Below are positions 7,933 through 59,121 of a DNA stretch of 64,000 nucleotides, in pieces. A program made the position numbers and the translations under genes. The first letter of the stretch is position 1. Every line of letters starts with the position of its first letter. The DNA comes from Eledone cirrhosa (taxonomy: Eukaryota): assembly GCA_964016885.1 (NCBI GenBank), contig OZ024764.1:25668001-25732000 (forward strand), written 5' to 3'. Under the pieces are notes generated by a model. It was not told the origin of the DNA. It did not search any database and saw only the letters and a list, made by a program, of their open reading frames with translations.

Positions 7933-10423
7933 TGTAACAAGAGTTGCCTCCCTTGTCATGACAATCTCACCACCGCTCTCTAGATAGGAAGTAGCTGGAG
8001 TTGCTTCCCTTTGGGAGTGACAGACTCCCTGTTGGTCACTTCCGGTCAGACCCTATAAAAGGAACAAGTCAGGACAATCTTCCTCTCTCGCCTCCTGAAA
8101 TCCAAAGTGGTAACACCTGCGACCTTAGCATGAGATGATTCATTTCTCATAATCCTTCGCCACCAAGAAGAATGCCGACAGGCAGATTTTATGTGATGTA
8201 TCTACTGATGCTCCACGACCACTTGTTCCTGAGACTCACCGTCGAATTGTGTTCCTGGCTCTGCACAACATTTCTCATCCAGGATCTGCTACCACAGTTA
8301 AACTTATAACAGCCAGATTCTTCTGGCCAAATATGAGGCGCGACATTGCTGCTTGGTGCCGTTCCTGCATCGCTTGCCAGAAATCGAAGATCCATAGACA
8401 CATCCGGACTCCACTTGGTACTTTCAGTACTCCAGATGCTCGGTTTCAACACATCCACATTGATATCGTTGGACCTTGGCCATTCAGCAGTGGATATTCA
8501 TACATATTGACGTGTGTCGATCGTTTTTCGCGATGGCCTGAAGCTATCCCTTTACAAGACATGACTGCTGAGACTGTAGCACGTGCCCTGGTATCAGGGT
8601 GGATTACCCGCTTTGGGGTACCAACTACACTCACCACAGACCGTGGTAGACAATTCGAGTCCCATCTCTTCTCTGAGCTCACAAAAATAATTGGAGCTCA
8701 ACGGATTCGGACCACAGCCTATTATCCTGCTTCAAATGGAATGGTGGAACGATTGCACCGCCAATTAAAGGCCGCTCTTCGCGCCTATCCAGACTCTCAA
8801 CGTTGGAGCGAGTACCTTCCTGTTGTGTTATTAGGAATTCGGTCATCAATAAAGGAGGACCTTGGGTTCTCCCCGGCCGAATTACTGTATGGTGCTCCTC
8901 TAGCGTTGCCTGGGCAAATGCTTGCCCCTGTTGATCTTGCTTTCCAAGATCCGCTTTCCTACGTATCCCGTCTGCGTCCTTATTTTCAAGACCTGCCGCC
9001 GATGGATACGAGGAAACAAACTGTAAAACCTGCGGTCTCGAGGGATATTGACTCGTGGACCCATGTGTTCGTAAGGAACGATGCTGTGAGACCACCCCTC
9101 ACACAACCATACTCTGGACCCTACCGTGTGTTAGCACGTACTGACAAACATTTTACTGTAGACGTTAAGGGGTCCAGAGAGACAATTTCGGTGGATAGAC
9201 TGAAAAGGGCACGCAATGACGCTCATACACCCGAGCCACAAATACCCCAATCTTTCTCTCTTGTGCATACACCTGCTCCTTCTGCCCCACCTTCACCTAC
9301 ATACAAGACTACGATCCGTTTCGGTCGGAGAGTCCACTGGCCCAAAAGGTTCTGCCAAACTATTTTTATGTGAACTGGCCACTGGAGCCTTATATATATA
9401 TTTTTTTGCTGTTCTTGTTATTTATTGATTTATTGTATTACAATGTACCTCTCATTACCATTTCACTGGATGTATATATATGTTTTTCGTTTCCTTTTAC
9501 AACGAACATTTTAAGCTATATTCTTCTATTTGCCGGTTTATAAATTTACCACGTAAATTTGCCGTTGAAAACCGCGCATTTATTAAGAATGCTTATTTCT
9601 CTGGTCGCTGGCCTCTTGACCCTTCCAGGTCAACGCATTCACAACATCAACAACAACAACACAGCTTCATCAACAACCAAAACCAGCAGAACAAGCCAGA
9701 GAATTTATTTCTGCAGCACTCTTCCTGTGAGAAATTCTCTTCGTTGGAATTTTCACGTTATACCACAGACCAAAAACCACCTGCATTCATTCTCTGGAAC
9801 ACATTCTTTACTGCTGTCATGTGATTGCACACATGTGAACTGTATTTTGGATATTTGAACTTTGACCTCTTCTCTTACTTTTATTACATTGTATCATAAT
9901 GTTCATGCCTCTTACATGCTCGCCATCTTACTCCATGCATGCATCATTCGATTTTTATGTTTTAAAAATCTGGCGGGAGATAATGTAGCAAGAGTTGCCT
10001 CCCTTGTCATGACAATCTCATCACCGCTCTCTAGACAGGAAGTAGCTGGAGTTGCTTCCCTTTGGGAGTGACAGACTCCCTGTTGGTCAATTCCGGTCAG
10101 ACCCTATAAAAGGAACAAGTCAGGACAATCTTCCTCTCTCGCCTCCTGAAATCCAAAGTGGTAACACCTGCGACCTTAGCATGAGATGATTCATTTCTCA
10201 TAATCCTTCGCCACCAAGAAGAATGCAACATGCAGCCTAAGAGCCTAAGAAGATGTTAACACCAGCTAGAAAAGATCTCTTCTTTTCTTTACACACTTCG
10301 GCCTGGAGTTGTGACCATCGGGTAACGATTCATTTATATTTAATACCTTTGACTTCTATGAAGTAAAAACATTACCAACACACACCGGCATTTACTGTCT
10401 TTTGTAATAATTTTATATGTACA
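7933..10423 (+). mobile_element. Ty3/Gypsy LTR retrotransposon with large internal deletion
   Basis: 5' LTR 7933-8175 (truncated) matches 3' LTR 9984-10226 with 4 differences seen; purine-rich tract ggcgggagataa before the 3' LTR; TG start, probable CA end at 10423; only integrase remains. Confidence 0.9.
8249..9373 (+). CDS. Gypsy integrase (C-terminal pol remnant)
   Basis: HHCC (HNISH...CIAC), DDE core HIDIVGP / TTDRGRQF / [13 protein letters not shown] motif GPYRV; no native start. Confidence 0.9.
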
Positions 10424-20904: not shown

Positions 20905-23900
20905 ACCCCGTGACCAAGAAATACCGGGATGGCGGCCGGCGGGTAATAGCCGTGTCTCTAGGGGAGAACGACCCCTCTAGTCTTGGTTGACACTCGTTCT
21001 AGAAGTGGTAACACGAAATGATTACCCCTTGGCGGATAAGGATAAAACGCGACAAAATAAAGTAAATGTCTAATGATAAAATCTCATACCGGATCGGCCG
21101 TCACCCGGGTAAAAAAGGGCCGCGTCCCTCAGAGAGGAACCAGACTGGGGTCGAAAAATCAGCTAATGGTTCAAACTTTCCCATCACTTCGGAGCTGGAG
21201 ACCTCCCATAACCGGAATACTCCTACTGTTGGCCCTCCATGCTCACCACCAAGAAATCCAAAGAAAAGGAGAGAAAATGGTCAAGGGAAGATAATAAAGA
21301 AGTCCTTGAGGCTTTCTACACTGCCATGTACTACCCATCAAATACATCGAATACAGAACAGACATATATCAACTGGAAAAAGAAACATCCCGAAAACAGA
21401 GGCTATATTGACAGTAACAACTAGCCAATATACGAAGAAATATTGTAAGAAAAAAGTTACTAACTGATATAGAAATTGATCAGATCAAGCTATTAGCACA
21501 AAGTCAGCGAAGGTAAAATGAAACATGTGTCAGTGAAAACGAGGTAAATTGTAACACTTCGAATGCCAGGGTTGGGGCGGAATCACTGGCAACAGAACAA
21601 ATTAAAGAAAGAATCGAAAAAGTGGAGGGAGTGCATGCTCAGGATGAAACTCCAAATGAAAATAATGAGATCGTAAATGATAAAGAAATGAATGAGAATG
21701 AACTTGCCAACTTGAAGGATGAAATTATGATCGAATGGATGAAAATGAAAGAATCTGACATGGGGCAACGAGACACCCTCCCTAAGATCCAGAACTCCAA
21801 ACAGAACCAAAAGATAATACACAAGACTAACATAATTCTCAAAAACATTATCATCACAAACAAACTAAACATTACTGATTTAAATCATCTCTATTATGCA
21901 TTGGCTAAAGTCACCACTCACTTATGTGGAGTGAAGATGAAAAAACAAAGGAATTCCCACAAGAAATTTACTTGGCAAGAGAACATCAATCGTCAAATAA
22001 ACCTTCTCCGATCTGACATAGAAATTTTAACAAACTATAAAGTAGGTGAACATGTTAAACAAACTAAACTTAGAAAATTGAAAAGAAAGTACAGTATAAA
22101 ATCAACAAGTGACATAGACATGCTGATAGAAATAATCAAGCAAAAAGTGTCGGCCAAAGCTGCTCGTATAAGGCGCTTTGAAAAACGATCTAGATTCTAT
22201 AAGGACAATAATATGTTCAAAAACAACCAAAGAAACTTCTACAGAAAAATTGGTAAGTCAACAATAACTGCTAAATCAATACCACCCAAGGAGGAAGTGC
22301 AAGAATTCTGGGAAAAGATCTGGGCCGAAGAAAAAGTTCATAACATACATGCCCCATGGATAGACAGACAAATGAAAAATACAGCTCACCTTGAGGAACA
22401 AATATGGGAAAATATAACAGTTGAACAGTTGCGCTTGGCTCTAAGAAAAACCAGCAAATGGAAATCCCCAAGAAAAGACAAAATACAAAACTTTTGGATA
22501 AATGCCTTCACAGAGTCTCATGAGCTGTTAGCCCAACTTTACAATGAAATAGTTAAGGAGCCAGAAAAGATACCATCATGGCTAGTTAACGGCATTACAT
22601 TCCTGCTTCCGAAGAATGATGAGACAAACAATCCCAAAAATTACAGACCGATAACTTGCTTGACCACAATGTATAAAATTTTAACATCAGTCCTAACTGA
22701 ATACACATATGACCACCTGATAACAAATGACCTATTTCCCATTGAGCAGAAAGGGTGTAAACGAGGCTCATATGGCTGTAAGGATCAGCTTTTGGTTAAC
22801 AAAATGATACTGGAAGATTGTCATAATAGACACAAAAATCTATCGATTGCTTGGATAGATTATAAAAAAAGCATTCGATAGTTTGCCACACAGTTGGATT
22901 GAAAAATGTTTAGAGATTTTCAAAATATTCCCCGTTGTCAGGAGGTTTTTGTCATTCAGTATGAAGACATGGAAAACGACACTCCTTTTGAATAGTGAAA
23001 CAAAATCACTGGAAGCTGGAGAAGTTAATATTAATTGTGGAATTTTTCAGGGTGACTCTTTATCACCGCTTTTATTCTGCATCGCACTTATACCATTAAG
23101 TAAAATGCTCAATGAAACAAAATATGGATATAAAGTCTATGACAAAACCATTAATCACTTGTTCTACATGGATGACCTGAAACTATTTGCAAAAAATGAT
23201 GAACAATTGCAAGGGCTATTATCCACTGTGGAGCAGTTCAGTGATGACATTAAAATGGAGTTTGGACTAGATAAATGCGCCAAAGCAACGTTCACCAGAG
23301 GAAAGCTGCTGAAGAGTTCAGACATTAATCTTGATCGGGGGAACGTGATAAGAGAACTTGATCAAGAAAAAACTTACAAATATCTAGGTGTTTGTGAAGG
23401 AGACGGAATCAAGCACTCGACAATGAGGGAAAGGATAAGGAAGGAATGTTACCGCAGAATAAGAGCAATCTTAAGAACGGAATTGAATGCAAGGAATAGG
23501 ATCGATGCCATAAACACGCTTGCCATACCAGTAGTAACCTACAGTTACAATGACATCAACTGGTCAAGCACAGAGATCCGTAGGCTCGATACAAAAATTC
23601 GAAAATTCTTAACCATGCACAGAATGCATCACCCTAAGGCAGATATAGATAGAATATATCTCCCTAGGAAAGAAGGAGGACGTGGGTTAATCCAGTTAGA
23701 CATTGCGTTGAAAACTGCAACAATTGGATTATCTACATATCTAAGGGAATCACATGATTGGATGATCAAACTCGTTTTGAAACACGAAAGCATCAAAAGA
23801 TCATATTCCATTACAAAAGATGCACAAAGATACAGTAATGGACTACAAATTTCAGAAGTCCCATTTACTGCTGAAATGGAAAACACAGAAAAAGCAAAGC

Positions 23901-24858
23901 AGGTAAAAGTAACTGCAAAGAAAGAACTGCTACAGAAACTGGCTAAGAAATGGCAAGAAAAGCCTCTGTATGGAAAATACCCAGAGCGAGCTAACAATCC
24001 TGATGTTGACACAACTTTAACCCATCAGTGGTTGGCATCCTCTGGACTGAAATCGGAGACTGAAGGACTGATTATATCAGCACAAGATCAGTGTCTGCCA
24101 ACAAAAAATTACCAAGCCAACATAATAAAAAATGGATACAGCCCATTATGCCGTGTATGCAAAAAACAACCAGAGACCATTGACCATATAATTTCAATGT
24201 GCAGTCCTATAGCTCCAACCGAATACCTAAACAGGCATGACAGAGCTGCACAATACATACATTGGATAATGTGTAAGCATTTTGACCTGCCCCATCAAAA
24301 GAATTGGTGGGAGCATCAACCACCTCCCATACTTGAAAAAGATCACATCTCAATCTTGTGGAACTTTAGCATCCAAACAGACCGAAAAATAGATGCAAAT
24401 AGACCTGATATAATATTGAAGGACTTTAAAAAGAGGGTATGCCTGCTAATTGATATGTCTGTTCCAATAGACAAGAATGTATCTATAAAAACATTCGAAT
24501 AATTGAGCAAGTATAAGGACCTGGAGATAGAAATTGGAAAAATGTGGAAATTGAGAACTAAAACAATACCAGTGGTTGTAGGCGCTCTGGGAATGATACC
24601 TAAGGGGTCTAATGATTACTTATCGCAAATCACAGGAAACCCGCGTATAGGAGAAATACAAAAGATAGTACTAATGGGAACTGCCCATATACTAAGGAAG
24701 ATTCTGTTAATATATGTACATCACAAGTCTAAACACTAAAGATGCATGTGTGAGTATGTATGTTCTTTCTTGAACATGGCGGACCTTGTTGTCTCTTGAG
24801 GTCACTGGTTGTGACTTGGTGATAACTCGTATGAACATAAAGCAAGATAAATGCAACT

Positions 24859-25209: not shown

Positions 25210-27180
25210 TTAAAAAAATAACAATTTATAGGCCAGGAGTACCTTAAAGGCCTCAAGAATAAAATAGACAATCTTGAAAAAACTAAGAGGATCCTCGTAA
25301 AATCTGATAAAACTAATAATTTTATATGGTATGGAAAAGGGCGAATATAATAACCTTATATTGAAAGAACTCAGAAAAAAACTACAAAATAACATCAAAT
25401 GAAGATCTTTCAACGTTAAATAGAGAAGCTTCTGAAATTATTTACAAATTAGGCATCCAAAATAGGACTTTATACCTAGAAAACCGAAAATTAACCTGAA
25501 AATTAACCGAAAATTAACCTGAAAGACCACAAAAGAAATTTTGAAATTGAACTACCAGTCAGACTCATCGCACCATCTAAATCGGAATTAGGCATAATTA
25601 GCAAACATATATTAGATAGAATTATACCACTACTTAAAGTAAAATCACACCTTAAACTATGGAACGGTACTAATGAAGCTATAGATTGGTTCAATAACAT
25701 AAAATTAAAACATAAAAAATTCATTCAAATGGATATTGCAAATTATTACTCCTCAATTACCCCTAGTTTACTTAATAAGGCACTTATCTACGCGTCTAAA
25801 CATACAGACTTATTTAGTGAAGAAATGAATATAATTCTAACAGCACGTAAAAGAATAATAGAATTTAATAATCATCTTTGGACAAGAGCCAACAGAAAAA
25901 AACAATTTTGATATCACTACGGGATCATCTGTCTCGGCGCAATTTACAGACCTCGTTGGATTATTTATTAATAATGTACTGCATAGGAAAATGCCAGAGA
26001 TGACCGGAGGTTTATATCGTGACGATATGTTGCTTTTAACTGAAAACCATAGCAACAGTGAAATTAATAGGAAAAGAAAATCCATAATACAATTTTTCAA
26101 CAACTACAGTCTTAAGTTAGAAATAGAGAATAACTAAAAAATCGTTAACTTCTTAGATGTAACTTTAAACCTTAGCTCAGGTCTTTCCTATCCTTTCCAT
26201 AAAATTAACGAAAATCTATGTAAGTTTCAATTCTAATCATCCTAGAAGTATTAAAAACACTATTGTCAATAGCGTCCAACAACGGATTTCACGCATCTCC
26301 GCTAATAAAAATATGTTTGATGATAAGGCTGAATATTATAAGGAAGCTTTATATAGAGCAGATACTCAAATAGAATTAAATACATAGATAACAATAACAT
26401 GATATATCATCCTAGTATTAACTTAAACACTAAACCAAACAAAAAAAAATAGAACTAGAAATATTATTTGGTACTCTCCCCCATTCTCATTAAGCGTTAA
26501 AACACCTTTAGCAAAGCTATTCTTTAAAGCACTAGGTAAATGTTTTCCTAAAACCCACAGATACCACTCTATTTTTAACAGACACACTATAAAACTATCT
26601 TACTCTACTACTATGAACATAACACAAAATATAAATAGAATTAATAATAGAAACTTAAATTTAAACCCTAACCAAACTAACCAAAATAGCAATAATAATA
26701 TTTCTAACAACAATATTCAGAATAATAGTACCGTTCTGAACAACAATAACTCCAGTAACTGTAGAATCAAATCAAACTGCCCTTTACAAAATAATTGTTT
26801 AGACAATAACATAGTTTATAAATGCATAGTTAAAACTAGAGACAAAATATTTAACTATGTTGGTGCCACTTCAACAAAATTTAAAGAACGCAGGAATAAC
26901 CATAATCATACATTTAGGAGATCTGATAAAAAATCTTCTACTTCACTTTCACATCTAATTTGGAATTTAAAAGACAACACTATAGACTATTCAATATCTT
27001 GGAGAACGATTTCGAAAGCACCTGTATACCGAAATATGGCTTTATCAAGATTCTGTAAATTGTGTATCGAAGAAATTTTTATATAATTAACTGTCAAAAC
27101 TCTATTAATCTCAGAACAGTTATTTTCTTCTTGCAAAGATCGCCAAAATACCACGTTCAGAACTATTTTTAATTTATAAT
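25210..27180 (+). mobile_element. Decayed Penelope-like element (RT + GIY-YIG), Naiad-like
   Basis: DKTNN, LKDHK, RLIAPSKSELG, DIANYYSSI, GLYRDD, NFLDVT, CRIKSNCPLQNNC, YVG, CKLC; many frameshifts. Confidence 0.9.
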
Positions 27181-31332: not shown

Positions 31333-32291
31333 AAGTCCCGTCAAGTGTAGAGGGAGGAGGAGAAGAGATATATTCAGAAAGAAAGATGATAGATTTAAAA
31401 TATTATGTTTCATCAGTTTATCAATTCATATGAATTAGGTATTATAATGTAAATATCAATATTCATGAATGAGACACATATCAATAATGTGTGAAAAAAT
31501 AATGACTATATGTTTAGTTTAAAAATTCTTAGGTTTATAATCAAAATCTGAGATAAAACTTCAAAAAAAAAATACTGAAATACATAAGTATATATGTATT
31601 TTCATGAAAAAAGAAAAAGAAAAAAGAGAAAGAAAAAAGAGAAGGTTATCTCAAATTCAAGTTGACATTATAGACATACATGTGAGTTTACGTGATCAGC
31701 TCTGTAAATTCTTATTTCACATGAAAATCTTCATTGCGTTACAAAAGATTCTACCATACATATATGTACATACATATATATATACATAAAATATACATTA
31801 TTAATAATAATATTCTTGCCCTCTCTTGCATGATTATCGTTCAAGCATAGAATAGACAACAGATATCAATATATTAAAAACGCCAAGAATATTTCACTCC
31901 CCAGAGTATCTAGGGCCGTAAGAAAACATAGTGTGCCCCGCATATCAACCACAGAAATCAACCCTTCCAATTTATTTGACAATATATTGCCAAGTTCATT
32001 AGAAGCAATCAGAATCAAAAGCAAACAAAACCAAAATTATTCAACAAAACTTATTTAGCAGAAATCATTCAAAAAAATTTAGGATACCCAGTTGTTCTAC
32101 AGATGCTCTTATATTTATTATAGAAGTTTATCTAGCTTAAAATTTATTCAATAGATTGGGAGCATCACCATTTTAAGGTAGTTTAATTACATCATTAATT
32201 ATATACTCATGAAGAAGGTTTAAAAAAATTGAAGGAATCGAAAGATTTATCGCCAAGTTTCATAAATAATTAAATATCTTAAGTAAATATA

Positions 32292-32580
32292 CTACATTTT
32301 AAATTTATATTTATATTTAAAAGTTGAGTTCAATCTATGTCTGCAGCAACTGAATAAATTGGTCCGTAAATTAAGGGAATTTTTAGATTTTAGTATAAAG
32401 AATATCTCCTCCGCGCAGAGGTCACATGTCTCAGAAGAGGAATTAAAAAAAATCCCTCTTGAGACTATATTCCAAACCATCGAATATCCAACGTTATCAT
32501 GTTTAAGTTGCCAGAGTAAGCCTGATAGTGATGTTGAAGATTTTTTGTTTGGATCCGAAGTTGTAAAGTTTAAGGTATGT
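32292..32580 (-). mobile_element. PLE GIY-YIG 3' fragment
   Basis: KKSSTSLS..W, CDLCAEE...CCRH. Confidence 0.75.
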
Positions 32581-32611
32581 CAAATTTATTTATAAAACTG
32601 TTTATATATTG

Positions 32612-32677
32612 TATTTTGTCTGAAGAGGGCATACCATATTTTTAATATGATATCCCTGAAATATATATAATGAAATA
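32612..32677 (+). ncRNA. Type I hammerhead ribozyme (same family as 12881)
   Basis: Stem I tattttgt/atgaaata; CTGAAGA; long stem II ggg..catat/atatg..ccc; GAAA; palindromic stem III atatatat. Confidence 0.7.
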
Positions 32678-32826
32678 AATATGGTTTTATAAATGTAGTT
32701 TCCATTTGTTTAATATCGTAAATATACTCCAAAACTTGTTGAGTGCTTTTATATCAGTTATAAAATATTTACTCGTTGTAACCCAACAATTTTAAATAAA
32801 ACTTTTGCATATATATATATATATAT

Positions 32827-35800
32827 TCGAGAATCTAATTGTAATACGTGACGTATTCTATTCTATAGCGATTAGGTCTTCAAAATGTTTATTATAAACA
32901 TACAGAATATTTTCGAATATTCTATGTCTATATTCACATATATATCGCTATTTCAGAGCATTTATTCCAATTTCTAATTTCTGCCGGACCGGCAACCGCT
33001 CTTTCAAACCAGTTCCTGTACACAGCTAAGTATTCTATAAGTCTCTAGCTGTGTCATTCTCGATAAAAGCACTGGATATGTAGTCCTGATGAATTCTAAC
33101 AAGAATGAAACGCGTAGATTACTTCCCTTTCTTTTATCGAGAATCTAATTGTAATACGTGACGTATTCTATTCTATAGCGATTAGGTCTTCAAAATGTTT
33201 ATTATAAACATACAGAATATTTTCGAATATTCTATGTCTATATTCACATATATATCGCTATTTCAGAGCATTTATTCCAATTTCTAATTTCTGCCGGACC
33301 GGCAACCGCTCTTTCAAACCAGTTCCTGTACACAGCTAAGTATTCTATAAGTCTCTAGCTGTGTCATTCTCGATAAAAGCACTGGATATGTAGTCCTGAT
33401 GAATTCTAACAAGAATGAAACGCGTAGATTACTTCCCTTTCTTTTATCGAGAATCTAATTGTAATACGTGACGTATTCTATTCTATAGCGATTAGGTCTT
33501 CAAAATGTTTATTATAAACATACAGAATATTTTCGAATATTCTATGTCTATATTCACATATATATCGCTATTTCAGAGCATTTATTCCAATTTCTAATTT
33601 CTGCTGGACCGGCAACCGCTCTTTCAAACCAGTTCCTGTACACAGCTAAGTATTCTATAAGTCTCTAGCTGTGTCATTCTCGATAAAAGCACTGGATATG
33701 TAGTCCTGATGAATTCTAACAAGAATGAAACGCGTAGATTACTTCCCTTTCTTTTATCGAGAATCTAATTGTAATACGTGACGTATTCTATTCTATAGCG
33801 ATTAGGTCTTCAAAATGTTTATTATAAACATACAGAATATTTTCGAATATTCTATGTCTATATTCACATATATATCGCTATTTCAGAGCATTTATTCCAA
33901 TTTCTAATTTCTGCCGGACCGGCAACCGCTCTTTCAAACCAGTTCCTGTACACAGCTAAGTATTCTATAAGTCTCTAGCTGTGTCATTCTCGATAAAAGC
34001 ACTGGATATGTAGTCCTGATGAATTCTAACAAGAATGAAACGCGTAGATTACTTCCCTTTCTTTTATCGAGAATCTAATTGTAATACGTGACGTATTCTA
34101 TTCTATAGCGATTAGGTCTTCAAAATGTTTATTATAAACATACAGAATATTTTCGAATATTCTATGTCTATATTCACATATATATCGCTATTTCAGAGCA
34201 TTTATTCCAATTTCTAATTTCTGCCGGACCGGCAACCGCTCTTTCAAACCAGTTCCTGTACACAGCTAAGTATTCTATAAGTCTCTAGCTGTGTCATTCT
34301 CGATAAAAGCACTGGATATGTAGTCCTGATGAATTCTAACAAGAATGAAACGCGTAGATTACTTCCCTTTCTTTTATCGAGAATCTAATTGTAATACGTG
34401 ACGTATTCTATTCTATAGCGATTAGGTCTTCAAAATGTTTATTATAAACATACAGAATATTTTCGAATATTCTATGTCTATATTCACATATATATCGCTA
34501 TTTCAGAGCATTTATTCCAATTTCTAATTTCTGCCGGACCGGCAACCGCTCTTTCAAACCAGTTCCTGTACACAGCTAAGTATTCTATAAGTCTCTAGCT
34601 GTGTCATTCTCGATAAAAGCACTGGATATGTAGTCCTGATGAATTCTAACAAGAATGAAACGCGTAGATTACTTCCCTTTCTTTTATCGAGAATCTAATT
34701 GTAATACGTGACGTATTCTATTCTATAGCGATTAGGTCTTCAAAATGTTTATTATAAACATACAGAATATTTTCGAATATTCTATGTCTATATTCACATA
34801 TATATCGCTATTTCAGAGCATTTATTCCAATTTCTAATGTCTGCCGGACCGGCAACCGCTCTTTCAAACCAGTTCCTGTACACAGCTAAGTATTCTATAA
34901 GTCTCTAGCTGTGTCATTCTCGATAAAAGCACTGGATATGTAGTCCTGATGAATTCTAACAAGAATGAAACGCGTAGATTACTTCCCTTTCTTTTATCGA
35001 GAATCTAATTGTAATACGTGACGTATTCTATTCTATAGCGATTAGGTCTTCAAAATGTTTATTATAAACATACAGAATATTTTCGAATATTCTATGTCTA
35101 TATTCACATATATATCGCTATTTCAGAGCATTTATTCCAATTTCTAATTTCTGCCGGACCGGCAACCGCTCTTTCAAACCAGTTCCTGTACACAGCTAAG
35201 TATTCTATAAGTCTCTAGCTGTGTCATTCTCGATAAAAGCACTGGATATGTAGTCCTGATGAATTCTAACAAGAATGAAACGCGTAGATTACTTCCCTTT
35301 CTTTTATCGAGAATCTAATTGTAATACGTGACGTATTCTATTCTATAGCGATTAGGTCTTCAAAATGTTTATTATAAACATACAGAATATTTTCGAATAT
35401 TCTATGTCTATATTCACATATATATCGCTATTTCAGAGCATTTATTCCAATTTCTAATTTCTGCCGGACCGGCAACCGCTCTTTCAAACCAGTTCCTGTA
35501 CACAGCTAAGTATTCTATAAGTCTCTAGCTGTGTCATTCTCGATAAAAGCACTGGATATGTAGTCCTGATGAATTCTAACAAGAATGAAACGCGTAGATT
35601 ACTTCCCTTTCTTTTATCGAGAATCTAATTGTAATACGTGACGTATTCTATTCTATAGCGATTAGGTCTTCAAAATGTTTATTATAAACATACAGAATAT
35701 TTTCGAATATTCTATGTCTATATTCACATATATATCGCTATTTCAGAGCATTTATTCCAATTTCTAATTTCTGCCGGACCGGCAACCGCTCTTTCAAACC

Positions 35801-37285
35801 AGTTCCTGTACACAGCTAAGTATTCTATAAGTCTCTAGCTGTGTCATTCTCGATAAAAGCACTGGATATGTAGTCCTGATGAATTCTAACAAGAATGAAA
35901 CGCGTAGATTACTTCCCTTTCTTTTATCGAGAATCTAATTGTAATACGTGACGTATTCTATTCTATAGCGATTAGGTCTTCAAAATGTTTATTATAAACA
36001 TACAGAATATTTTCGAATATTCTATGTCTATATTCACATATATATCGCTATTTCAGAGCATTTATTCCAATTTCTAATTTCTGCCGGACCGGCAACCGCT
36101 CTTTCAAACCAGTTCCTGTACACAGCTAAGTATTCTATAAGTCTCTAGCTGTGTCATTCTCGATAAAAGCACTGGATATGTAGTCCTGATGAATTCTAAC
36201 AAGAATGAAACGCGTAGATTACTTCCCTTTCTTTTATCGAGAATCTAATTGTAATACGTGACGTATTCTATTCTATAGCGATTAGGTCTTCAAAATGTTT
36301 ATTATAAACATACAGAATATTTTCGAATATTCTATGTCTATATTCACATATATATCGCTATTTCAGAGCATTTATTCCAATTTCTAATTTCTGCCGGACC
36401 GGCAACCGCTCTTTCAAACCAGTTCCTGTACACAGCTAAGTATTCTATAAGTCTCTAGCTGTGTCATTCTCGATAAAAGCACTGGATATGTAGTCCTGAT
36501 GAATTCTAACAAGAATGAAACGCGTAGATTACTTCCCTTTCTTTTATCGAGAATCTAATTGTAATACGTGACGTATTCTATTCTATAGCGATTAGGTCTT
36601 CAAAATGTTTATTATAAACATACAGAATATTTTCGAATATTCTATGTCTATATTCACATATATATCGCTATTTCAGAGCATTTATTCCAATTTCTAATTT
36701 CTGCCGGACCGGCAACCGCTCTTTCAAACCAGTTCCTGTACACAGCTAAGTATTCTATAAGTCTCTAGCTGTGTCATTCTCGATAAAAGCACTGGATATG
36801 TAGTCCTGATGAATTCTAACAAGAATGAAACGCGTAGATTACTTCCCTTTCTTTTATCGAGAATCTAATTGTAATACGTGACGTATTCTATTCTATAGCG
36901 ATTAGGTCTTCAAAATGTTTATTATAAACATACAGAATATTTTCGAATATTCTATGTCTATATTCACATATATATCGCTATTTCAGAGCATTTATTCCAA
37001 TTTCTAATTTCTGCCGGACCGGCAACCGCTCTTTCAAACCAGTTCCTGTACACAGCTAAGTATTCTATAAGTCTCTAGCTGTGTCATTCTCGATAAAAGC
37101 ACTGGATATGTAGTCCTGATGAATTCTAACAAGAATGAAACGCGTAGATTACTTCCCTTTCTTTTATCGAGAATCTAATTGTAATACGTGACGTATTCTA
37201 TTCTATAGCGATTAGGTCTTCAAAATGTTTATTATAAACATACAGAATATTTTCGAATATTCTATGTCTATATTCACATATATAT
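32827..37285 (+). mobile_element. Tandem array, 14.4 x 310 bp, one hammerhead per unit: candidate non-LTR retrozyme
   Basis: Exact 310-bp period (tcgagaat at 32827, 33137 ... 37167); only two substitutions noticed (33605, 34839); no ORF; flanked by (TA)n. Confidence 0.9.
33080..33122 (+). ncRNA. Minimal type I hammerhead ribozyme (first of 14; repeats every 310 bp to 37110-37152)
   Basis: gtagtc CTGATGA attc-taacaa-gaat GAAA cgcg TA gattac: stem I gtagtc/gattac, stem II attc/gaat, palindromic stem III acgcgt, GUA cleavage triplet (cut after 33116). Confidence 0.92.
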
Positions 37286-37791
37286 ATATATTTTTGTATA
37301 GTGGTAGCTATGGTGCTTCCGTAGGCGGTATTCCAAAATTAGCACTCGATATTGAAAGAACCCGCAGAAGTAGAATCACCCAGATCCATACAAGGACAAT
37401 GACTCGAGCTACATGCTGGCGAAACATTTGTAACACGAAATAAACTAAGTCCAGATGCATCACTGATTTTTCGTTTTCTTTATAATATATATATATATAT
37501 ATATAAAACATGAGAAGAAAGAAGAATACTGCGTGGTTGCACATGGGTTACATATGATGAAAATAGTCCTTCGTCAGTGATTTGCCAACCATCATTGATA
37601 TTTCATCGCATTAAAAGTCAGATACCTCAGGTTGGTGCGAGCAATAATCTAAAATAAAGTACCAGTAATGCACTGGGTAATTTCTGGCCTTGTGCCTAAA
37701 GTAGAAACAATTATATATATATATATATATACACCCACACACGCACATACATACACATACACACATACATATATGTGTACATATATACCCG

Positions 37792-38078: not shown

Positions 38079-39730
38079 CTATCCATCTGGTAGCAAGACT
38101 GGATTGAAATATTTGTAAGTTGTAAAGCTTTTGTGCATGCAATTCAGGCAGTGTTCAGAGACTGTGTTCAGTGTTGGGCCCTTGCCAAATAGTATTTCGT
38201 AGCTCTCTGAAATACAAAGGTCACAACACTTGTGTCCTCCCATGTATGAGTGCGCTCTCTGGAGTAATTTCCATTTGAGCATGAAAGGGGTGGAGTTCCT
38301 CTTGAGGAACATAGGAGGCGAGTGTTGTCTGATTGGATTTGTCCGGTCTTCTGAACGAGTGGATATGGGCATAGCACCGGGTCTTAAAATTGTTGGAAGT
38401 CATTCCGATATAAGCCTTTTTGTTGTGGTCATCAGTTGCTGAGATGACATCACATTTATATACGATGTCATTCATCAGGCATTTGTTTTCGAGTGGACAA
38501 GCTTCCTTATTTTGGCAGTTACACAAAGCTCCCGTCCGGGGATGGGTTTCGGAGGTTAGGCTTATTTAATTTAGCAGTGTTGAGGTTGGCTATATTCCTA
38601 GCTACGTTAGGTGTAATGGAGTAGGAGAGTCTTATTATATTCTTATTAAAGATAGTGTAGAACCCATGTTGTGTGGGGAAGTGTTTATTCAGCAATTTGA
38701 AGAAAGTCCTAGCTATTGGTGTAGAAACCTCTCTGTTGACGGGGAGGGGTTGTACCAACTAATCTGCCTATGCCTATTTCTCCTAGGTAGTCTTGGGGTG
38801 GTTTCTAGATAAGTAATCCTTTCTTTAAAGCCACTGCGAACGAGGGAGTCATTGTAGTAAGGAGCAGAGGCACTAAAGATGTCTTCATTGGCTGAGAGAC
38901 CGGAAATTATAAGTGAGACACTTTTAACTAAATTATCTGTAATATTTTTGGGGTGGTTTGAACTAACATTTATGTATCTAAGGGATTCGTTATGTTTATG
39001 GTACGAGTGATAGAGGGAAGTATCTAAGTCTAGGGTGACATCTAAAAAGTTGGCCCTAGTCATATTTGATTCTATGGTTATTCTAAATACTAGATTACGG
39101 AATTAAGTTTTTCCGAAACCCATCAGTGGTTCTGGGGTTTACTTTGTGCAAAACAAAGAGGCCGTCATCTCGGTATAATCCTCCAGTTAGGCCTGTGAAG
39201 AGGTTCTTCAGGTGATGTAAGATGTACAGGTCCATGAGGTCACTCACTTAAGCCGAGTCACTTGCTCCCATGCTGACTTCAAATGGAGTCTCAGATTTCT
39301 TGTTAATTCAATAAAATCCCTCGTGGTGTAAAAAGGTCTTACAGGCGTGGAGGATCACATCCTGCTCAGCGTCAGTTATGGTGGTAAAATTCCTGGCAAA
39401 AGCAAGTGCATCCTTCAGTAGAGGCTCTGAGATAGAGGCATAGTAGTCTTCTATGTCGAGTTGCAGAAAGCGGGTGTAGCATTTATTGGACAATTCTTGG
39501 AACCAAGAGATTGCCTCGGAGGTTCTGTTCCAGAGTGGGAGGGGTGAGGCTGCATAGAGTTATGGTAGTACTCTATCAAGGATCTTTTTGCTGATAGAAT
39601 TGATGTCCAAACGTGGGGTTGAGCAGTCTGACTGGCGGTTTGTTAAGGAAGTTACCCTTGTGGTCCTTCAGAGTAAAGTGCTAGGACTTACTCTTAAAGG
39701 TTCAGTTTGGTCATCTAATTTAAGGGGCTT
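38079..39730 (-). mobile_element. Decayed Naiad-like Penelope element (RT + GIY-YIG)
   Basis: LKDHK, DIEDYYASI, GLYRDDG, NFLDVT, SNHP, CNCQNKEACPLENKC, YIG, CDLC. Confidence 0.92.
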
Positions 39731-44098: not shown

Positions 44099-46172
44099 TC
44101 ATCATCATTTTACGTCCGCTTTTCCCTGCTTGCAAGGGTGGGAGGGGTCCTATTCACCACAGCATCTCTCCACTTGTCATGGTCCTTCGTCATCTCCACC
44201 GTGAGCTTCAATGATCTGAGGTCTGTTCTCACCACCTCCGTCCATCTTTTTCGTGGTCTACCTCTACCACGTGTTCCTTCAACTGGCATTTCCTGGCACT
44301 TCTTCACCCATCGGTCATCCTCCATGCGCATCACATGTCCATACCACCTCAGTCCCCTCTCCCGTACACTACATTCTATCCCTCTCAGACACAGTTTCTC
44401 TCTCAATACATTTATGCTGGGTCGTTCACGCACATTTACACTGCACATCCAACGGAGCATGCTTGCCTCATTTCTCTCCAGCCGTCGCATATCCTCTGCA
44501 GTTGCTGCCTATGTCTCACTACCATGCAGCATCACGCTCCTCACACAGGCATCATACAACCCGCCTTTCGTGCGCAGGGAGAAACCCTTCTTCATCAGCA
44601 GAGGAAGCAGCTCCCTAAACTTCTTCCAACCCGTCCTTATTCTTGATACTATGGCCTCGGACCCCCTCCCCCCTCCCATGCTAATCTGATCTCCTAGGTA
44701 CCGGAAGCCATACACCCCTATTATAGCACCCGCCTGCATTTGAAAAATGTGTCTATCAATGCGGCTTCTACTGTCTAATTTCCCTGTACTTCTACTGCAT
44801 ACGTATTTCTCCCTACCTGTTAGTTTGGCTGCTATCCCGCTACATCTCTTGTGTACCCAGGATCTGCATTGTGTGCATTTTAAAGAATTTATGCCAGTTC
44901 CTTTTCTGCATATCGAACATGGCCATTTCCCTGGTGGAATCAGAGTTTTGTCCTCTTTTCTACTCATCAACACTTTAGTCTTAGCTAGGTTCACTCTCAG
45001 TCCTCTTGATTCCAACTGCTGTTTCCATAGCCAGAATTTATTCTCTAGCTCCTCTATTGATTTTGCTATAAGAACCAGATCGTCAGCATAGAGAAGTTCC
45101 CATGGACAGCCAGTCTTAAACTCCTCTGTTGTGGCTTGGAGGACTATAATGAACAAGAGCGGGCTGAGGACCGAACCTTGATGTACTCCTACTTGTATCT
45201 GGAATTCCTCACTAAACTCCATTCCTACCCTGACTTCACTGACAGCACCGCTGTACAAAGTTTGCACTGTCCTCACAAGCCATTCGTCAACACCTAGTTT
45301 CCTTAGGAACAGATTGAGGTACCCTATCAAAGGCCTTCTCTAGGCTAAGTATAGTGGCTTATTCTTCTCTAAGAACCTCTCTTGTAATTGTCTCACCAAG
45401 AAGAGGGCATCTGTTGTACTCTTCCCAGGCACAAAACCAAACTGCATCTCATCTAGTTTGACCCTTTCTTTAATTAGATATGTTAATATCCTTTCTGCCA
45501 CTTTCATAACCTGATCTATCAGTTTTATGCCCCTATAATTGCTCCTCTCCAGAGCATCCCCTTTACCTTTGTAGCAATTTATGAGAATACTGCTGCACCA
45601 GTCTTTGGGTATGACACCACCATATATAGCCTGATTGATGATGCGTGCGACCAGTTTAGTGCCTACGTGCCCTGATGCCTTCAGCATCTCAGCAACTATC
45701 CCCGGCAGTCCAGCAGCCTTACCATTTTTCATTTCCTTAATCGCCTCTTGGACCCTATATTCGTCAATCTCAATAGCTGGTCCCTCTGTCGGATCTGCTG
45801 AGGGTAATTTCTCTCTCTCCCATTCGTTCTCCACATTCATCAGTCTCTCATAATGACATTTCCAGACCTCCTTTTTCTGATCATTCGTGACACTAAGTAC
45901 ACCGGGATCATCCCGGACACATTTATCTCCAACAACATCCTGATTTGCATTGACACACTGCCTTGCAATGTGGAACACTGCACGCCTCTGATCTTCCCGT
46001 CGCAGAATATTGGTAAACCTCCTACTCTCAGCCTCCCTGCGTGCTAAGTACACCTGACGTCTAGCTTCTCTCTTAGCGGCTGTATATTCTTCCCTACTCC
46101 CACCCTTTTGCCAAGCCTGCCATGCTAGTCTTTTGTCTCTAATAGCACTATCTACCGTGCTGTTCCACCACC
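44095..46172 (-). mobile_element. RTE LINE, 5'-truncated, RT with Cys-rich PHD-like insert
   Basis: NYRGIKL, QFGF, GVHQGSVLSP, YADD, CSIC..CTQC..WVHKRC, RGRGRPRK; (GAT)n tail. Confidence 0.92.
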
Positions 46173-46174
46173 AC

Positions 46175-47084: not shown

Positions 47085-47974
47085 CTAGCAGTAAAGCCCG
47101 GCGTTGCTCGGGGTCGCTCAGTAGCTGTGTTAAAGTTACAATGTTAAGTTTCTTTCTTGGCTTAAAAACTGTAGTGTCTACTGTGCAGACTTGCATGTGG
47201 TGTTTTTGATTAATATTCCCTCAACCAACAATATGCCTTATGAAGTTAAGAAAACATAACGATAACCCGAATGTTATAACAAAAGAGGATGCTGGGGATA
47301 GAAACTGCACTGGTTATTTATTAACAAAGATCGAAAATGTAAACACTGCAACGCAGAGAAAAACATTAGCGTAACCAAATTATCAGTTATGTCTGTCTGC
47401 ACGCCTATATCACCTCTCTGCACGACTGTCTGTCTGCACGCCTATATCACCTCTCTGCACGACTGTCTGTCTGCACGCCTATATCACCTCTCTGCACGAC
47501 TGTCTGTCTGCACGCGTATATCACCTCTCTGCACGACTGTCTGTCTGCACGCCTAACGACGAAATATTTGCTTGTTTTACGTAGTCTTTAAATAGACTTG
47601 TTTTCAAGTAAAAATATTGTTTTAAAATGCTTTTAAATGGAAATGAAGCAAAACGGAAGCTTAGTGTTCGAACTGATGAATTTTGCAGGTCTGTCATTTT
47701 AAACGCTGAGAAAGCCAGCGTAATTTTTTACGTAAGACGCTCAATGTAAACAGAACAAAGGGAAATAACTGATAACTTACGCTCAAAAATCGATACATTA
47801 TATTCGATTTCGTCACATAGGGTGGGTCAATTTGAAATATTTTTTTCCGATGTCTTCGCTAGGGCTCAATGTACAAGTATAGCAATTTCGATGCAATTCC
47901 GTGAGAGATTCTAAGAGGAGATGTGTGCCAAAAATCGATAGACAGACAGACAACCACAGTTTTATATATATAGA
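47085..47974 (-). mobile_element. Non-autonomous Helitron (copy of 28381-29161) with expanded internal ~38-bp minisatellite
   Basis: TC...CTAG termini in an A|T target; 3' hairpin. Confidence 0.92.
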
Positions 47975-48455: not shown

Positions 48456-51400
48456 TCTAAATATATAAAACTGAGGTTGTCTGTCTGTCTGTCTACTAAA
48501 ACGGTCGGCACACATCTCCTCCTAAACCCTACGTTCAAATTTCGGTGACATTGCTACACTTATAGATGAAAGTCCGGCGGAGACATCGGTCAAAAACATT
48601 TTCAAATAGACCCACACCAAGTGCAAAAATCGAATTTGTAATGTATTGATTTTTCAGTTCAAATGTATAAATAGAGATGAGAGACGAGTTATTTCCCTTT
48701 TATGGCGCCATTCTGTTTATCTATTTACGTTACGAATAAACGACACGTGCAAAAGTACAAAAATACGCGAACAGTTTTCGAACCAGCAAAATTTTAACCT
48801 GCAAAATTCATGAGTTCGAAGTTTCAACATTAAGCTTCCATTTTGCTTCATTTCCATTAAAAAGTCTTTTAAAACAATATTTTTACTTGAAAACAAGCCT
48901 ATTTGAATACACGGAAAACAAGCAAATATTTTGTAAAATAAGCATTGATGTCGAATAAAGTCTTATGAGATTTTCATTTAGAAGCAATGATTTTAAACGA
49001 CGGACAGTCGTGCAGAGAGGTGATATAGGCGATAAAGTTGTACAGACAGGCAGTCGTGCAGAGAGGTGATATAGGCGATAAAGTTGTGCAGACAGACAGT
49101 CGAGCAGAGTGTTGATATAGGCGATAAAGTTGTGCAGACAGACAGTCAAGTGCATCAAATACATATGTAAGTATGTTAATAAGGGGTCTGACGCTGCTTC
49201 GTTCGGTATACTCAAGGAAAAAAATAGAGACGAAGTAACGCAATTCCAAGTAGGGCGCTACATAAGTAGTAGCGAGGGATTTTGGCAAATCTTCGGTTTT
49301 CCAATACATGATAGGCACTCTTCAATTGTAAAATTAGATGTACACCTGGAACATGGTCAACGGATGTACTATACCAACAAAAATGCCGCTGAATTGGCAC
49401 AGACCCCAAGGGAGACAACTTTAACTGGATTTTTCAAACTGCGCGAATACGATGACTTCTCAAAATCATTGCTGTATCCTCAGGTGTCATCATACTACAC
49501 AAGGAATAAAAAAAAACATGGAGTCGCAGAAAGACTGGCCAACCGGTTATTGGAGTTCCTGGGATCAAATTCACTAATTGCTTGGTTCGAGTGTATACGA
49601 TTCCTCCAAATCAACACGAGTGCTTCTATCTTCGAATGCTACTGCATGAGGTCAAAGGACCGACCAGTTTTCAGGAGTTCAGTACTTTCGGTAATCGTGT
49701 TTGGTCTACATACAGAGATGCCTGTTTGGCTCGTGGAATGCTTGAAGATGACTCACAATGGGATGCAACCTTGGCGGAGATCGCTTCATCACACTCAGCT
49801 GGAAGCCTACGAGAGCTCTTTGCAAAGCTCTTCACTTATGTAACATTTGTGATCCCTACACATTATGGTTGAAGTTTCGGAACCAACTGTCTGAGGACTT
49901 CCTGCACCAGGCTCAACTACTACTTCTTGACATAGAAGTAGATTTCAGTGATGATTTATACAATAAAGGGCTTATAGACATAGAGGACAGGATTTTCCTT
50001 ATGGGTGGGAATGCCACAAACCCACCGCACTGATTCTAATAAAATTCCAACTCTCATCATCCAAAAAACATCTTATGATGTCGATACTCTAGCTAGATAT
50101 GTGTTTGAAATGGAACCAAAACTACTTCCCGATCAGCAATTTGCATACAACACTATCACCGACTATGTATTTCATCGATCGGGTGGTATCTTCTTTCTTG
50201 ATGCCCCTGGAGGCACTGGAAAAACCTTTGTTACTAAACTTCTTCTTGCCAAAGTTCGACAGAATGAAGTTATCGCAATAGCCGTTACATCATCCGGTAT
50301 TGCAGCAACACTACTTCCTGGCGGCAGGACAGCACACTCTACCTTTAAGCTTCCGATTAACTTAGTATCAGCTGAAACACCGCTCTGTGACATCACCAAG
50401 GATAGTCCGAGAGCAGAACTCTACGACGGTGGCAACTGATTGTGTGGGATGAATGTACCATGGCTCACAAAGGAGATATTGAGGCCTTAGATAGAACACT
50501 GAAAGACATTAGAGACCATCAGGAGACCATGGAGGGGGTGTAACTCTTTTGCTTTCAAGGGACTTTCGACAAACGTTGCCGGTTATTCGAAAGGGCACCA
50601 GAGCGGATCAAGTTCGGGCCTGCCTGAAGTCTTCTCCATTGTGGCAAGAGGTAATAACACTTCGTCTGACCACTAACATGCGTGTTCAACTGCATGGCGA
50701 TACTGTGTCTGAAATATTTGCTGAAGACCTTCTCATTCTTGGCAACGGCAAAGTACCTTCAGATGTGTATGGAGACATTGCACTCGACAATATATGCTGT
50801 CTGGTTAACACTGTCGAAGATCTCAAGGCAGCCGTTTTTCCTAACTTGGCAGATAATTACCGCAATCATACATGGCTGTGTGAGAGGGCTATATTAGCTC
50901 CTACAAATGTCACTGTCTCCGCCATTAATCGCCAAATGCTTGAAAGTCTTCAATTCATTGGATATTCCCGGTCTACCTCAACATATTTTGTTTCTCAAGG
51001 AAGGATGTCCAGTTATACTTCTCACAAATATAACCCCTCCAAATCTTTGCAATGGTACACGTCTTGTTGTCAATAGGATGTCACAGCACATTATTTATGC
51101 TACGAATATGTCGGGGTGTGGAAAAGGAGAAGATGTTTTAATACCTACGGTAACTCTTACTACATTTCCCCTTCGTGCTGCCTTTGCTATGTCCATCAAC
51201 AAGTCCCAGGGTCAGACTTTATCTGTGGCAGGACTTCACCTGGCGGAGCCATGTTTTTCACATGGACAATTCTACGTTAGATGTTCTCGAGTTGGCAGCC
51301 GGAACAACCTCTTTGCTTTTGCTCCAAACGGAAAAACAAAGAATATTGTATACTGTGAGGGTTTATAGGGTTTTTGGGGTTCAAAACAGCAATGTTACAC

Positions 51401-58477: not shown

Positions 58478-59121
58478 CTAAAATCAAGGAAAAGGTTTTA
58501 ATAATAATAATTGTTTATACTTTTGGCACAAGGCCAGCAATTATCCAGTACATTACTGGTACTTTATTTTATCGACGCTGAAAGGATGAAAGGCAAAGGT
58601 AAACTCGGAGGGATAATGATGATTTCTGATTTAGGCTCAAGGTCAACAATTGGGGCTAAAGTAAAGTCAGTTAACCCTTTAGCATTTACATTACTCTATA
58701 TATACTATTGTATTTTCACAGTAAAGGCTTTACCTCACATAATATCTCACATAACATCTCGTATACGAGAGACGTGTGTTGACGTGTGTGAACAAGCTCG
58801 GCTACCGAGTCGGATTTACTTACTCAAAAAGTGAGTTTTGATTAATTTTTTTATACTGTAATATACGTTAACCCCTTGCCTTGGTCGTCAAACTTTGAGT
58901 TTATTTATTTTCGCCCCTTTTTGGGGCGAATTTTCCAGTTAAAAATTTATTACGGCAAACTAATAGAAATGGACGGAATTTTCACATCTCATCCTAACGT
59001 GAAAGCCACGCCCCCTAAGAAAGGTGATACAGAGAAGCTAGAAGCACAAGGCTCTAAGTCTTCCCTCCTGACTTCTGCAAAAGAAACATGGAACACGGAA
59101 TTAAAATAAAAATTTGTAAAA

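What the first reader, a model, noticed from the sequence alone, without database searches (positions are those of the whole stretch)
33117..33426. The cleaved 310-nt monomer folds into a closed, branched structure
Seen: a perfect 14-bp pair, cttttatcgagaat / attctcgataaaag, plus stem I would clamp the two monomer ends together. Internal stems include aatacgt/acgtatt, atagcgat/atcgctat, atgtttat/ataaacat, gaatatt-ttcg-aatattc, tgccgg/ccggca, agagc/gctct and acacagcta/tagctgtgt. Inference: this density of complementarity is unexpected for neutral satellite DNA and fits selection on a circular RNA whose ends must meet for ligation.
Basis: partly seen in the sequence, partly recalled or inferred. 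Interest (0 to 1): 0.75.

Follow-up and report, generated by a model that had tools for sequence, protein, structure and literature searches.

The report
Retrozyme RNA fold kept by selection
This 310-base repeat unit carries a hammerhead ribozyme motif, and its predicted folded shape is preserved by matched base changes across three related repeat families in the same genome, so it is likely a small self-cutting circular RNA (a known kind, a retrozyme) that a Penelope-type transposon enzyme likely copies back into the genome.

Summary
The stems are real. The circular fold (-62.4 kcal/mol) beats 60 of 60 shuffles, and the perfect 14-bp stem beats 200 of 200. I found two older sister families in the same genome, 62-65% identical to this one. 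In the 14-bp stem, every changed pair is still paired (5 of 5 and 7 of 7), so the fold is under selection. Two of ten helices are not conserved column by column. The unit is a non-LTR retrozyme: a type I hammerhead at each junction, and 15,511 exact hammerhead matches genome-wide. Insertions sit mostly in (TA)n. 35 of 42 loci are two head-to-head arms; 32 of 33 readable ones end at one short and one long fixed site about 30 nt apart, which is the Penelope 'tail' signature. Within arrays I counted 26 single-unit changes and none shared by a subset, which fits one-step copying of a single unit. Cleavage, expression, RNA circles and the partner enzyme are untested. Verdict: new member of a known kind, with unusually good structural and insertion evidence.

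The parts
32827..37285 (+). One-armed retrozyme array, 14.4 copies of a 310-bp unit; starts at monomer position 21 (inside the 14-bp stem), ends at monomer position 139 (short end site)
33117..33426 (+). Unit monomer between two predicted hammerhead cut sites
33380..33436 (+). Type I hammerhead across the unit junction: stem I 5' strand 33390-33395, core CUGAUGA 33396-33402, stem II 33403-33416, GAAA 33417-33420, palindromic ACGCGU helix III 33420-33425, predicted cut after GUA at 33426/33427; repeated every 310 bp (upstream copy 33071-33136)
   Evidence: Rfam HH9 23.4 bits, E 0.002, below the gathering score of 52 (none at gathering); sequence read directly; fold
33131..33144 (+). 5' strand of the 14-bp long-range stem
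   Evidence: compensatory changes
33366..33379 (+). 3' strand of the 14-bp long-range stem
   Evidence: two other arrays invert exactly through this stem
33175..33261 (+). Branched domain closed by ATAGCG(AT)/(AT)CGCTAT, holding hairpins 33195-33211 and 33215-33232
   Evidence: kept in families B and C
33265..33312 (+). AGAGC/GCTCT helix enclosing a 22-nt mostly unpaired loop (33270-33291) and hairpin 33292-33304; the best conserved sequence across the three families
   Evidence: motif count 24,477 genome-wide, control 0
33242..33258 (+). Short end site (monomer 126-142): one arm of an insertion ends here; inferred start site of reverse transcription
33275..33286 (+). Long end site (monomer 159-170, mostly 165): the other arm ends here; the stretch between the sites is the Penelope-type 'tail'
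33153..33167 (+). Hairpin not conserved column by column; B and C fold their own hairpin about 5 columns away
33330..33364 (+). Hairpin with conserved loop ATTCTATAAG; stem not conserved column by column
32810..32826 (.). (TA)n left flank, the insertion target; it is the 3' end of a neighbouring Penelope-like element
37286..37291 (.). (TA)n right flank
32557..32810 (+). Neighbour, not part of the unit: 3' terminal repeat of a young Penelope-like element, with a minimal-hammerhead-like motif near 32612-32677; no sequence similarity to the retrozyme found
   Evidence: the motif is read from sequence only (fold z -0.6)

Best explanation
The 310-nt unit is a hammerhead-bearing tandem repeat of the non-LTR retrozyme kind whose predicted fold is preserved by compensatory changes across three sister families, and it likely works as a self-cut, host-ligated RNA circle that a Penelope-type reverse transcriptase likely copies into (TA)n sites from both cut DNA ends. 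Steps. (1) Inferred: arrays are transcribed as multimers. (2) Inferred: the hammerhead cuts after GUA, mainly as a dimer, because helix III is a palindrome that does not form within one unit. (3) Inferred from published relatives: RtcB-type ligase closes the monomer, and the weak helix III keeps the closed circle from re-cutting. (4) Shown: insertions lie in (TA)n, are mostly two head-to-head arms, and end at two fixed internal sites about 30 nt apart, never at the cut site. Inferred: a Penelope-type endonuclease cuts both strands, and each 3' end primes at one of the two sites. (5) Shown: arrays are clonal, with up to 19 units per arm. Inferred: the enzyme goes round one circle repeatedly. 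(6) Shown: arm junctions are enriched in short microhomology, and two junctions use the 14-bp stem. Inferred: the two cDNAs anneal through the element's own self-complementarity. On this reading the fold is selected as a stable template that presents the hammerhead and the enzyme's start region, not mainly as a clamp for ligation.
For: Fold: 0 of 60 and 0 of 200 shuffles; four B copies z -3.9 to -6.2. Covariation on 72 untrimmed pairs taken from this family's structure: against C, 21 of 34 changed pairs stay paired (17 double changes, 4 G-U; random-letter mean 11.8, 4 of 5000); against B, 15 of 27 (11 double, 4 G-U; mean 9.5, 80 of 5000). 14-bp stem: 5 of 5 (B) and 7 of 7 (C) changed pairs kept. 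RNAalifold covariation terms -7.1 and -8.6, with 16 of 48 and 19 of 57 pairs showing double changes. The core pair C3-G8 is replaced by U3-A8 in 24 of 30 C copies (1 other reading, 5 not parsed), a variant described in PMC4209133. Helix III probability 0.0 in the monomer; two copies form a 6-bp duplex of -9.5 kcal/mol. 15,511 exact hammerhead matches, control 0. 35 of 42 loci two-armed; 12 of 16 in a sample taken by position; 32 of 33 with readable ends have one short and one long end. B and C show the same two ends. Target duplications of 11 and 15 bp at two non-microsatellite sites. 26 single-unit substitutions and 0 subset-shared in 242 units of 27 arrays; 17 of 21 arrays have the same modal unit in both arms. 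Junction microhomology of 2 nt or more in 17 of 33 (null 18%), 3 or more in 10 of 33 (null 7%). Purified Penelope-type protein cuts both strands and starts at two internal sites that define the tail (PMC11167929). Inverted copies, a 30-40 bp tail and (TA)n targets are Penelope features.
Against: No RNA, cleavage or circle was observed. No Penelope-like element sharing the tail or unit sequence was found. Both strands fold equally well. Two of ten helices fail column-level conservation. The three families give only about two independent contrasts, and the count tool warns that relatedness inflates its shuffle control. The Rfam score is far below gathering, and 11 of 16 family-A variants have U-U at the base of stem II. 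In the 2026 preprint, 8 of 9 predicted Xenopus retrozymes did not cleave in vitro, and hammerhead mutants did not block Penelope insertion in vitro. One substitution was shared by 2 of 6 units in L043 in the BLAST count. One array (L034) has an atypical second end. Junction enrichment at the stem is uneven: 8 of 14 in the position-ordered set, 2 of 13 in the window-like set. The window's own array is one-armed.
Confidence: 0.7

Rival explanations
1. Same element and same Penelope-type enzyme, but the template is an uncut linear multimeric transcript; the fold serves enzyme binding, and circles are a by-product or absent.
For: In PMC11167929 unprocessed RNA was the dominant substrate and hammerhead mutants still inserted. 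A multimer would also give full-length arrays in one step. No circle was seen here.
Against: Variants fixed in every unit of both arms and seen in only one of the sampled arrays (for example L041 11 of 11, L044 4 of 4, L049 13 of 13, L097 8 of 8) need a one-unit bottleneck. Arms reach 19 units, each with an intact core. The hammerhead core and stems covary.
Confidence: 0.17
2. Short Penelope-style insertions of 1-2 units were later expanded in place by unequal crossing-over or slippage, the satellite model discussed in bioRxiv 10.64898/2026.07.22.740005.
For: Older families B and C have mostly about 1-2 units per arm. The preprint proposes local amplification. Identical arms are expected under this model too.
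Against: Gradual expansion should leave variants shared by subsets of units: 0 such against 26 singletons (one doubleton). Dispersed arrays on many chromosomes are identical in unit sequence. B and C loci were picked by a one-unit query, so their short arms may be biased.
Confidence: 0.07
3. The pairing is selected at the single-stranded DNA level (cDNA or a rolling-circle DNA element) and not in an RNA.
For: The minus strand folds as well, and two junctions use the 14-bp stem in a way that needs cDNA-cDNA pairing.
Against: The hammerhead core is on one strand only and shows the C3-G8 to U3-A8 swap. Family-level one-sided changes give 5 G-U and 0 A-C on the plus strand in trimmed helices (one C-A lies just outside that set). 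The ends match Penelope retrotransposition.
Confidence: 0.04
4. Neutral AT-rich satellite with chance palindromes.
For: 13 of 40 GC-matched windows nearby fold as well in raw energy.
Against: Shuffle controls, compensatory changes, hammerhead core, dispersed arrays with fixed ends.
Confidence: 0.02

Closest known systems
Metazoan non-LTR retrozymes (coral, mussel, axolotl; PMC7229834; passages and parts 3-4 of 6 read, supplement unreadable here)
   Same: Tandem unit in the 150-450 bp range, low GC (34%), one type I hammerhead per unit, no ORF, highly self-paired predicted circle with the hammerhead free to fold. Helix III as in axolotl HHR_Amex1 (one pair plus a palindromic tetraloop); U-U at the base of helix II as in HHR_Amex2.
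   Different: RNA and circles are not shown here. The cut triplet is GUA in this family (GUC in B and C). The two-armed insertions with two fixed ends are not described in the text I read, where Penelope-like elements are named only as 'a strong candidate'.
Non-LTR retrozymes as non-autonomous Penelope-like elements (bioRxiv 10.64898/2026.07.22.740005; parts 1-3 of 5 read, supplements closed)
   Same: Same proposed dependence on Penelope-like elements; co-occurs with abundant such elements.
   Different: That paper argues from co-occurrence and terminal-repeat homology in vertebrates; 'tail', 'covariation' and 'mollus' do not occur in its text. Here the evidence is the insertion footprint, and no homologous terminal repeat was found.
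Endonuclease-bearing Penelope-like elements (PMC11167929 parts 1-2 of 4; 10.1101/2021.04.23.441226 and PMC3846280 passages)
   Same: Inverted 5'-truncated copy, 30-40 bp tail on one end only, 8-10 bp target duplications, AT-rich or (TA)n targets, internal starts downstream of a hammerhead.
   Different: No reverse transcriptase or endonuclease ORF; many exact units per arm; full-size helices I and II rather than a minimal hammerhead.
Newt satellite 2 and other dimeric type I hammerheads (PMC6155905, PMC4209133 passages)
   Same: Unstable palindromic helix III, predicted to work as a dimer in multimers and to stay quiet in the monomer.
   Different: Activity untested here; unrelated unit sequence.

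Membership tests
Non-LTR retrozyme | Tandem repeat of a few hundred bp with low GC | tested here: met
   310 bp, 14.4 copies, GC 0.34
Non-LTR retrozyme | Type I hammerhead motif in every unit | tested here: met
   Core and three helices read from sequence; Rfam HH9 E 0.002 but below gathering; units near-identical
Non-LTR retrozyme | Non-coding, no LTR arrangement | tested here: met
   No ORF of 120 aa or more over the array; flanks are (TA)n. PBS and PPT were not searched separately.
Non-LTR retrozyme | Dispersed, mobile copies | tested here: met
   205 matches on many chromosomes; 15,511 hammerhead matches; target duplications at two sites
Non-LTR retrozyme | Highly self-paired predicted circular structure | tested here: met
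Non-LTR retrozyme | Self-cleavage of the transcript | not testable with these tools
   Needs in vitro transcription
Non-LTR retrozyme | Accumulates as circular RNA in vivo | tested here: inconclusive
   Only contigs of runs of unrecorded kind were available
Penelope-mobilised element (works like) | Inverted arm plus 30-40 bp tail on one end only | tested here: met
   35 of 42 two-armed; 32 of 33 with one short and one long end
Penelope-mobilised element (works like) | AT-rich or (TA)n target with short duplication | tested here: met
   11 and 15 bp shared flanks at L034 and L097, others unreadable in repeats
Penelope-mobilised element (works like) | Shares terminal sequence with an autonomous partner | tested here: inconclusive
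   None found in 30 Penelope-protein loci, 20 B loci, 30 C loci and 23 tail-motif loci; the genome gave 105,628 protein candidates, so the search was shallow
Autonomous Penelope-like element | Encodes reverse transcriptase and GIY-YIG endonuclease | tested here: not met
   No ORF in the unit
Plant LTR retrozyme | Type III hammerhead in two LTRs, 4-bp target duplication | tested here: not met
   Type I topology, multi-unit tandem arrays, longer duplications

The most novel reading that the evidence does not exclude
A lineage of RNA circles has replaced itself in at least three waves (C, B, A; 62-81% identity) in one animal genome, keeping a fixed fold and a conserved docking region for a Penelope-type enzyme. 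One circle is primed by both ends of a cut chromosome at two set sites and copied round and round into two concatemers, which join through the circle's own stems. This would be a genomic record of rolling-circle reverse transcription, and would name both the mobilising enzyme class and the RNA element it reads.
Probability: 0.45. Interest if true: 0.75.

Novelty: new member of a known kind. Interest (0 to 1): 0.52.

Why it matters
How animal retrozymes are copied back into genomes is open: the defining paper calls Penelope-like elements a candidate and the 2026 preprint says the mechanism remains to be worked out. This family makes it testable. It gives a structure backed by compensatory changes, two mapped end sites inside the most conserved region, and thousands of near-identical young insertions. 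An in vitro system for a Penelope-type protein exists (PMC11167929), so circle against linear template and two-site priming can be tested directly. The class is known and the fold of one more member is not surprising in itself. Six literature searches listed no paper on this family or on this footprint in retrozymes. The library lacks most subscription journals, and the supplements of PMC7229834 and the bioRxiv preprints could not be seen and may list related elements.

Tried and rejected
Expression: no RNA holder listed, which says nothing either way. Three runs under other organism labels each hold one 340-nt contig of the unit with 1, 1 and 3 differences; that length is what a closed 310-nt loop would give, but tandem DNA gives it too and the run kind is not on record, so I did not use it. 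Loose ends into (TA)n at 33255 and 33283-33288 in X1, X2 and X4 agree with the two end sites, but these runs are one sample and may not be independent of the assembly. Ligation clamp: end-to-end test not significant, 12 of 60. Strand from energy: not possible, both strands fold. Rfam at gathering: nothing. The isolated 71-nt hammerhead and the neighbouring minimal motif are not more stable than shuffles (z -0.5, -0.6). First junction script mistook the 14-bp stem for a strand switch; its numbers are discarded and replaced. The trimmed-helix count (14 of 14 changed pairs kept against B) was trimmed after I had seen B, so I rely on the untrimmed count. A hairpin at monomer 123-136, like the AC-rich stem-loop of the anole element, has probability 0.05-0.06 in this family, although B and C fold one there; not claimed. 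Partner enzyme: not found; the neighbouring young Penelope-like element targets (TA)n and has its own tail of about 84 nt, but shares no sequence. A GUC-triplet pattern gave 13 scattered matches, not followed beyond two loci. For the junction-at-stem test I left out L047-L052 (picked through partial hits that begin at that stem) and L228. For the variant count, 15 of 42 loci with fewer than 4 units and 12 off-length units were dropped. Host: probably a cephalopod, on weak grounds (3.0-Gb genome; Argonauta and Octopus among 14 hits at only 32-40% identity); not established.

Full report
Observation. The window holds a 14.4-copy array of a 310-bp unit at 32827-37285; full units differ from the first by 0-1 base. 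Three have arms 1 nt apart and so form one pair fewer than quoted. The circular fold is -62.4 kcal/mol, z -4.0, with 0 of 60 dinucleotide shuffles as good. The 14-bp perfect stem exceeds all 200 shuffles, whose best is 12. Limits: the minus strand scores z -3.3, 13 of 40 GC-matched windows nearby reach the same raw energy, and the ends of the linear monomer are no closer than in 12 of 60 shuffles.

The ribozyme. Each junction carries a type I hammerhead: stem I, CUGAUGA, stem II, GAAA, ACGCGU, with a predicted cut after GUA. Rfam HH9 matches at 23.4 bits, E 0.002, below its gathering score. Helix III has probability 0.0 within one unit, while two copies of the palindrome pair as a 6-bp duplex. 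Such hammerheads are reported to cut as dimers in multimers and to be quiet in monomeric circles (PMC4209133; PMC6155905; passages read). Cleavage here is inferred, not shown.

The family. An exact hammerhead pattern has 15,511 matches in the 3.0-Gb genome, control 0. The first 100 fall in 16 loci, which suggests on the order of 2,000 loci (my estimate). Beside one array I found an older sister family B (2,625 candidates), and then a third, C (2,634 candidates). Identities are A-B 0.65, A-C 0.62, B-C 0.81. A 17-nt motif shared by all three has 24,477 matches, control 0.

I took 72 pairs from family A's structure, untrimmed, and compared family majorities in one alignment of 16 A, 16 B and 30 C units. 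Against C, 34 pairs changed and 21 stay paired (17 double changes, 4 G-U); random letters give a mean of 11.8, and 4 of 5000 trials reach 21. Against B, 27 changed and 15 stay paired (mean 9.5; 80 of 5000). In the 14-bp stem all changed pairs are kept: 5 of 5 in B (one further pair gapped) and 7 of 7 in C. Hammerhead stems I and II and the hairpin at 33215-33232 also covary. Two helices (33153-33167 and 33330-33364) account for 9 of 12 and 11 of 13 broken pairs; B and C fold their own hairpins at those places. The count tool gave 19 of 79 pairs with double changes against 4-8 for slid controls; its shuffle control is inflated by relatedness. RNAalifold gives covariation terms of -7.1 and -8.6. 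Four B copies folded alone give z -3.9 to -6.2. Family C swaps core C3-G8 for U3-A8 in 24 of 30 copies, a variant reported in PMC4209133. Three families are only about two independent contrasts, but they agree.

Insertion anatomy. Of 42 family-A loci, 35 have two head-to-head arms and 7, including this window, have one. In a sample taken by position rather than by likeness, 12 of 16 are two-armed. Of 33 two-armed loci with both outer ends readable, 32 have one end at monomer 126-142 and the other at 159-170; none has two of a kind, and L034 is the exception. Neither site is the ribozyme cut site. Flanks are mostly (TA)n; two non-repeat sites show 11 and 15 shared flanking bases. B and C show the same two ends. 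An inverted truncated copy, a 30-40 bp tail on one end, short duplications and (TA)n targets are described for Penelope-like elements (10.1101/2021.04.23.441226; PMC3846280; passages). Purified anole protein cuts and extends both strands and starts at two internal sites that bound the tail (PMC11167929; parts 1-2 of 4 read). The long site lies in a 22-nt mostly unpaired loop within the best conserved region.

One-step copying. In 242 units of 27 arrays I counted 26 single-unit substitutions and none shared by a subset (15 small loci and 12 off-length units left out; a BLAST count found one doubleton in L043). Array-specific variants are fixed across both arms, and 17 of 21 arrays share the modal unit between arms. 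This fits birth at full length from one unit, as from a circle. It argues against gradual local expansion but does not exclude linear multimer templates. Assembly polishing could add to the homogeneity.

The fold and the junctions. Arm junctions show microhomology of 2 nt or more in 17 of 33 (null 18%) and of 3 or more in 10 of 33 (null 7%); 9 read as inserts, some because of array variants. L087 and L097 invert exactly through the 14-bp stem. Junctions touch that stem in 8 of 14 position-ordered arrays (p 0.002), 2 of 13 window-like arrays (p 0.74), and 10 of 27 pooled (p 0.02). This is tentative. The window's own array begins inside that stem.

What it is for. The fold is selected, but 'ends must meet for ligation' is not shown. 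The long stem does not join the termini, and related RNAs circularise mainly through RtcB in vitro (PMC7229834; passages and parts 3-4 of 6 read). I favour a stable circular template that presents the hammerhead on one side and the enzyme's start region on the other (0.7). Linear multimer templates are the main rival (0.17). No partner enzyme was found. The array landed in the (TA)n end of a young Penelope-like element that shares no sequence with it.

Standing. Non-LTR retrozymes are known, and their link to Penelope-like elements has been argued from co-occurrence and homology (bioRxiv 10.64898/2026.07.22.740005; parts 1-3 of 5 read). Six searches listed no paper on this family or on this footprint in retrozymes (listings only); unseen supplements may bear on that. 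Earlier notes of this scan reach a similar reading of the footprint in this and other genomes; they are AI notes and not independent support. Verdict: new member of a known kind, interest 0.52.

Noticed in passing
window 31401-32810; L212:5970-9060: A young (98-100% identical copies, 3,428 candidates) Penelope-like element with GIY-YIG domain, ending in (TA)n, with inverted arms ending about 84 nt short of the direct end and a minimal-hammerhead-like motif near 32612-32677. The window's copy has its body inverted relative to intact copies.
   Followed up: partly
L093:4205-4964: A second retrozyme array joined directly to an older copy of the same Penelope-like terminal repeat.
   Followed up: no
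L228 (G000:C1:1237500-1246500): Array with a 311-bp unit; the extra base lies at the predicted cut site in all units of both arms, and the junction has a small internal duplication.
   Followed up: partly
L047 and L048: Two arrays on different chromosomes, with different unit variants, share the same arm junction (88/13-15) but have their short and long ends swapped.
   Followed up: no
L033:1570-1611 and 8245-8285: The flanks beyond the (TA)n runs are inverted copies of each other; unexplained.
   Followed up: no
L099, L106-L109: Another scattered hammerhead-like family with the same ACGCGU palindrome, a GUC triplet and a GC-rich stem II (5 of 13 matches); L108 shows a roughly 350-bp partial repeat.
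   Followed up: partly
runs X3, X5, X6: Three runs under three other organism labels each hold one 340-nt contig nearly identical to the unit; run kind not on record.
   Followed up: partly
window 25507-27086 and 38713-39102: Older Penelope-like fragments; the first belongs to a very abundant group (105,628 candidates) and is 53% identical to the young element's protein.
   Followed up: partly
window 8153-9373, 21517-24502, 44110-46173, 49121-51368, 59110-60714: Other transposon remains: integrase (Pfam rve), LINE-type reverse transcriptases (RVT_1 for 22859-24502), helicase-like fragments (recognised from memory, not searched) and a zinc-knuckle ORF.
   Followed up: no
window 1-958, 4692-5207, 47390-47555, 48999-49147: Other tandem repeats (periods 58, 75, 37, 46); the last two share sequence in opposite orientation around a 1.4-kb interval.
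   Followed up: no
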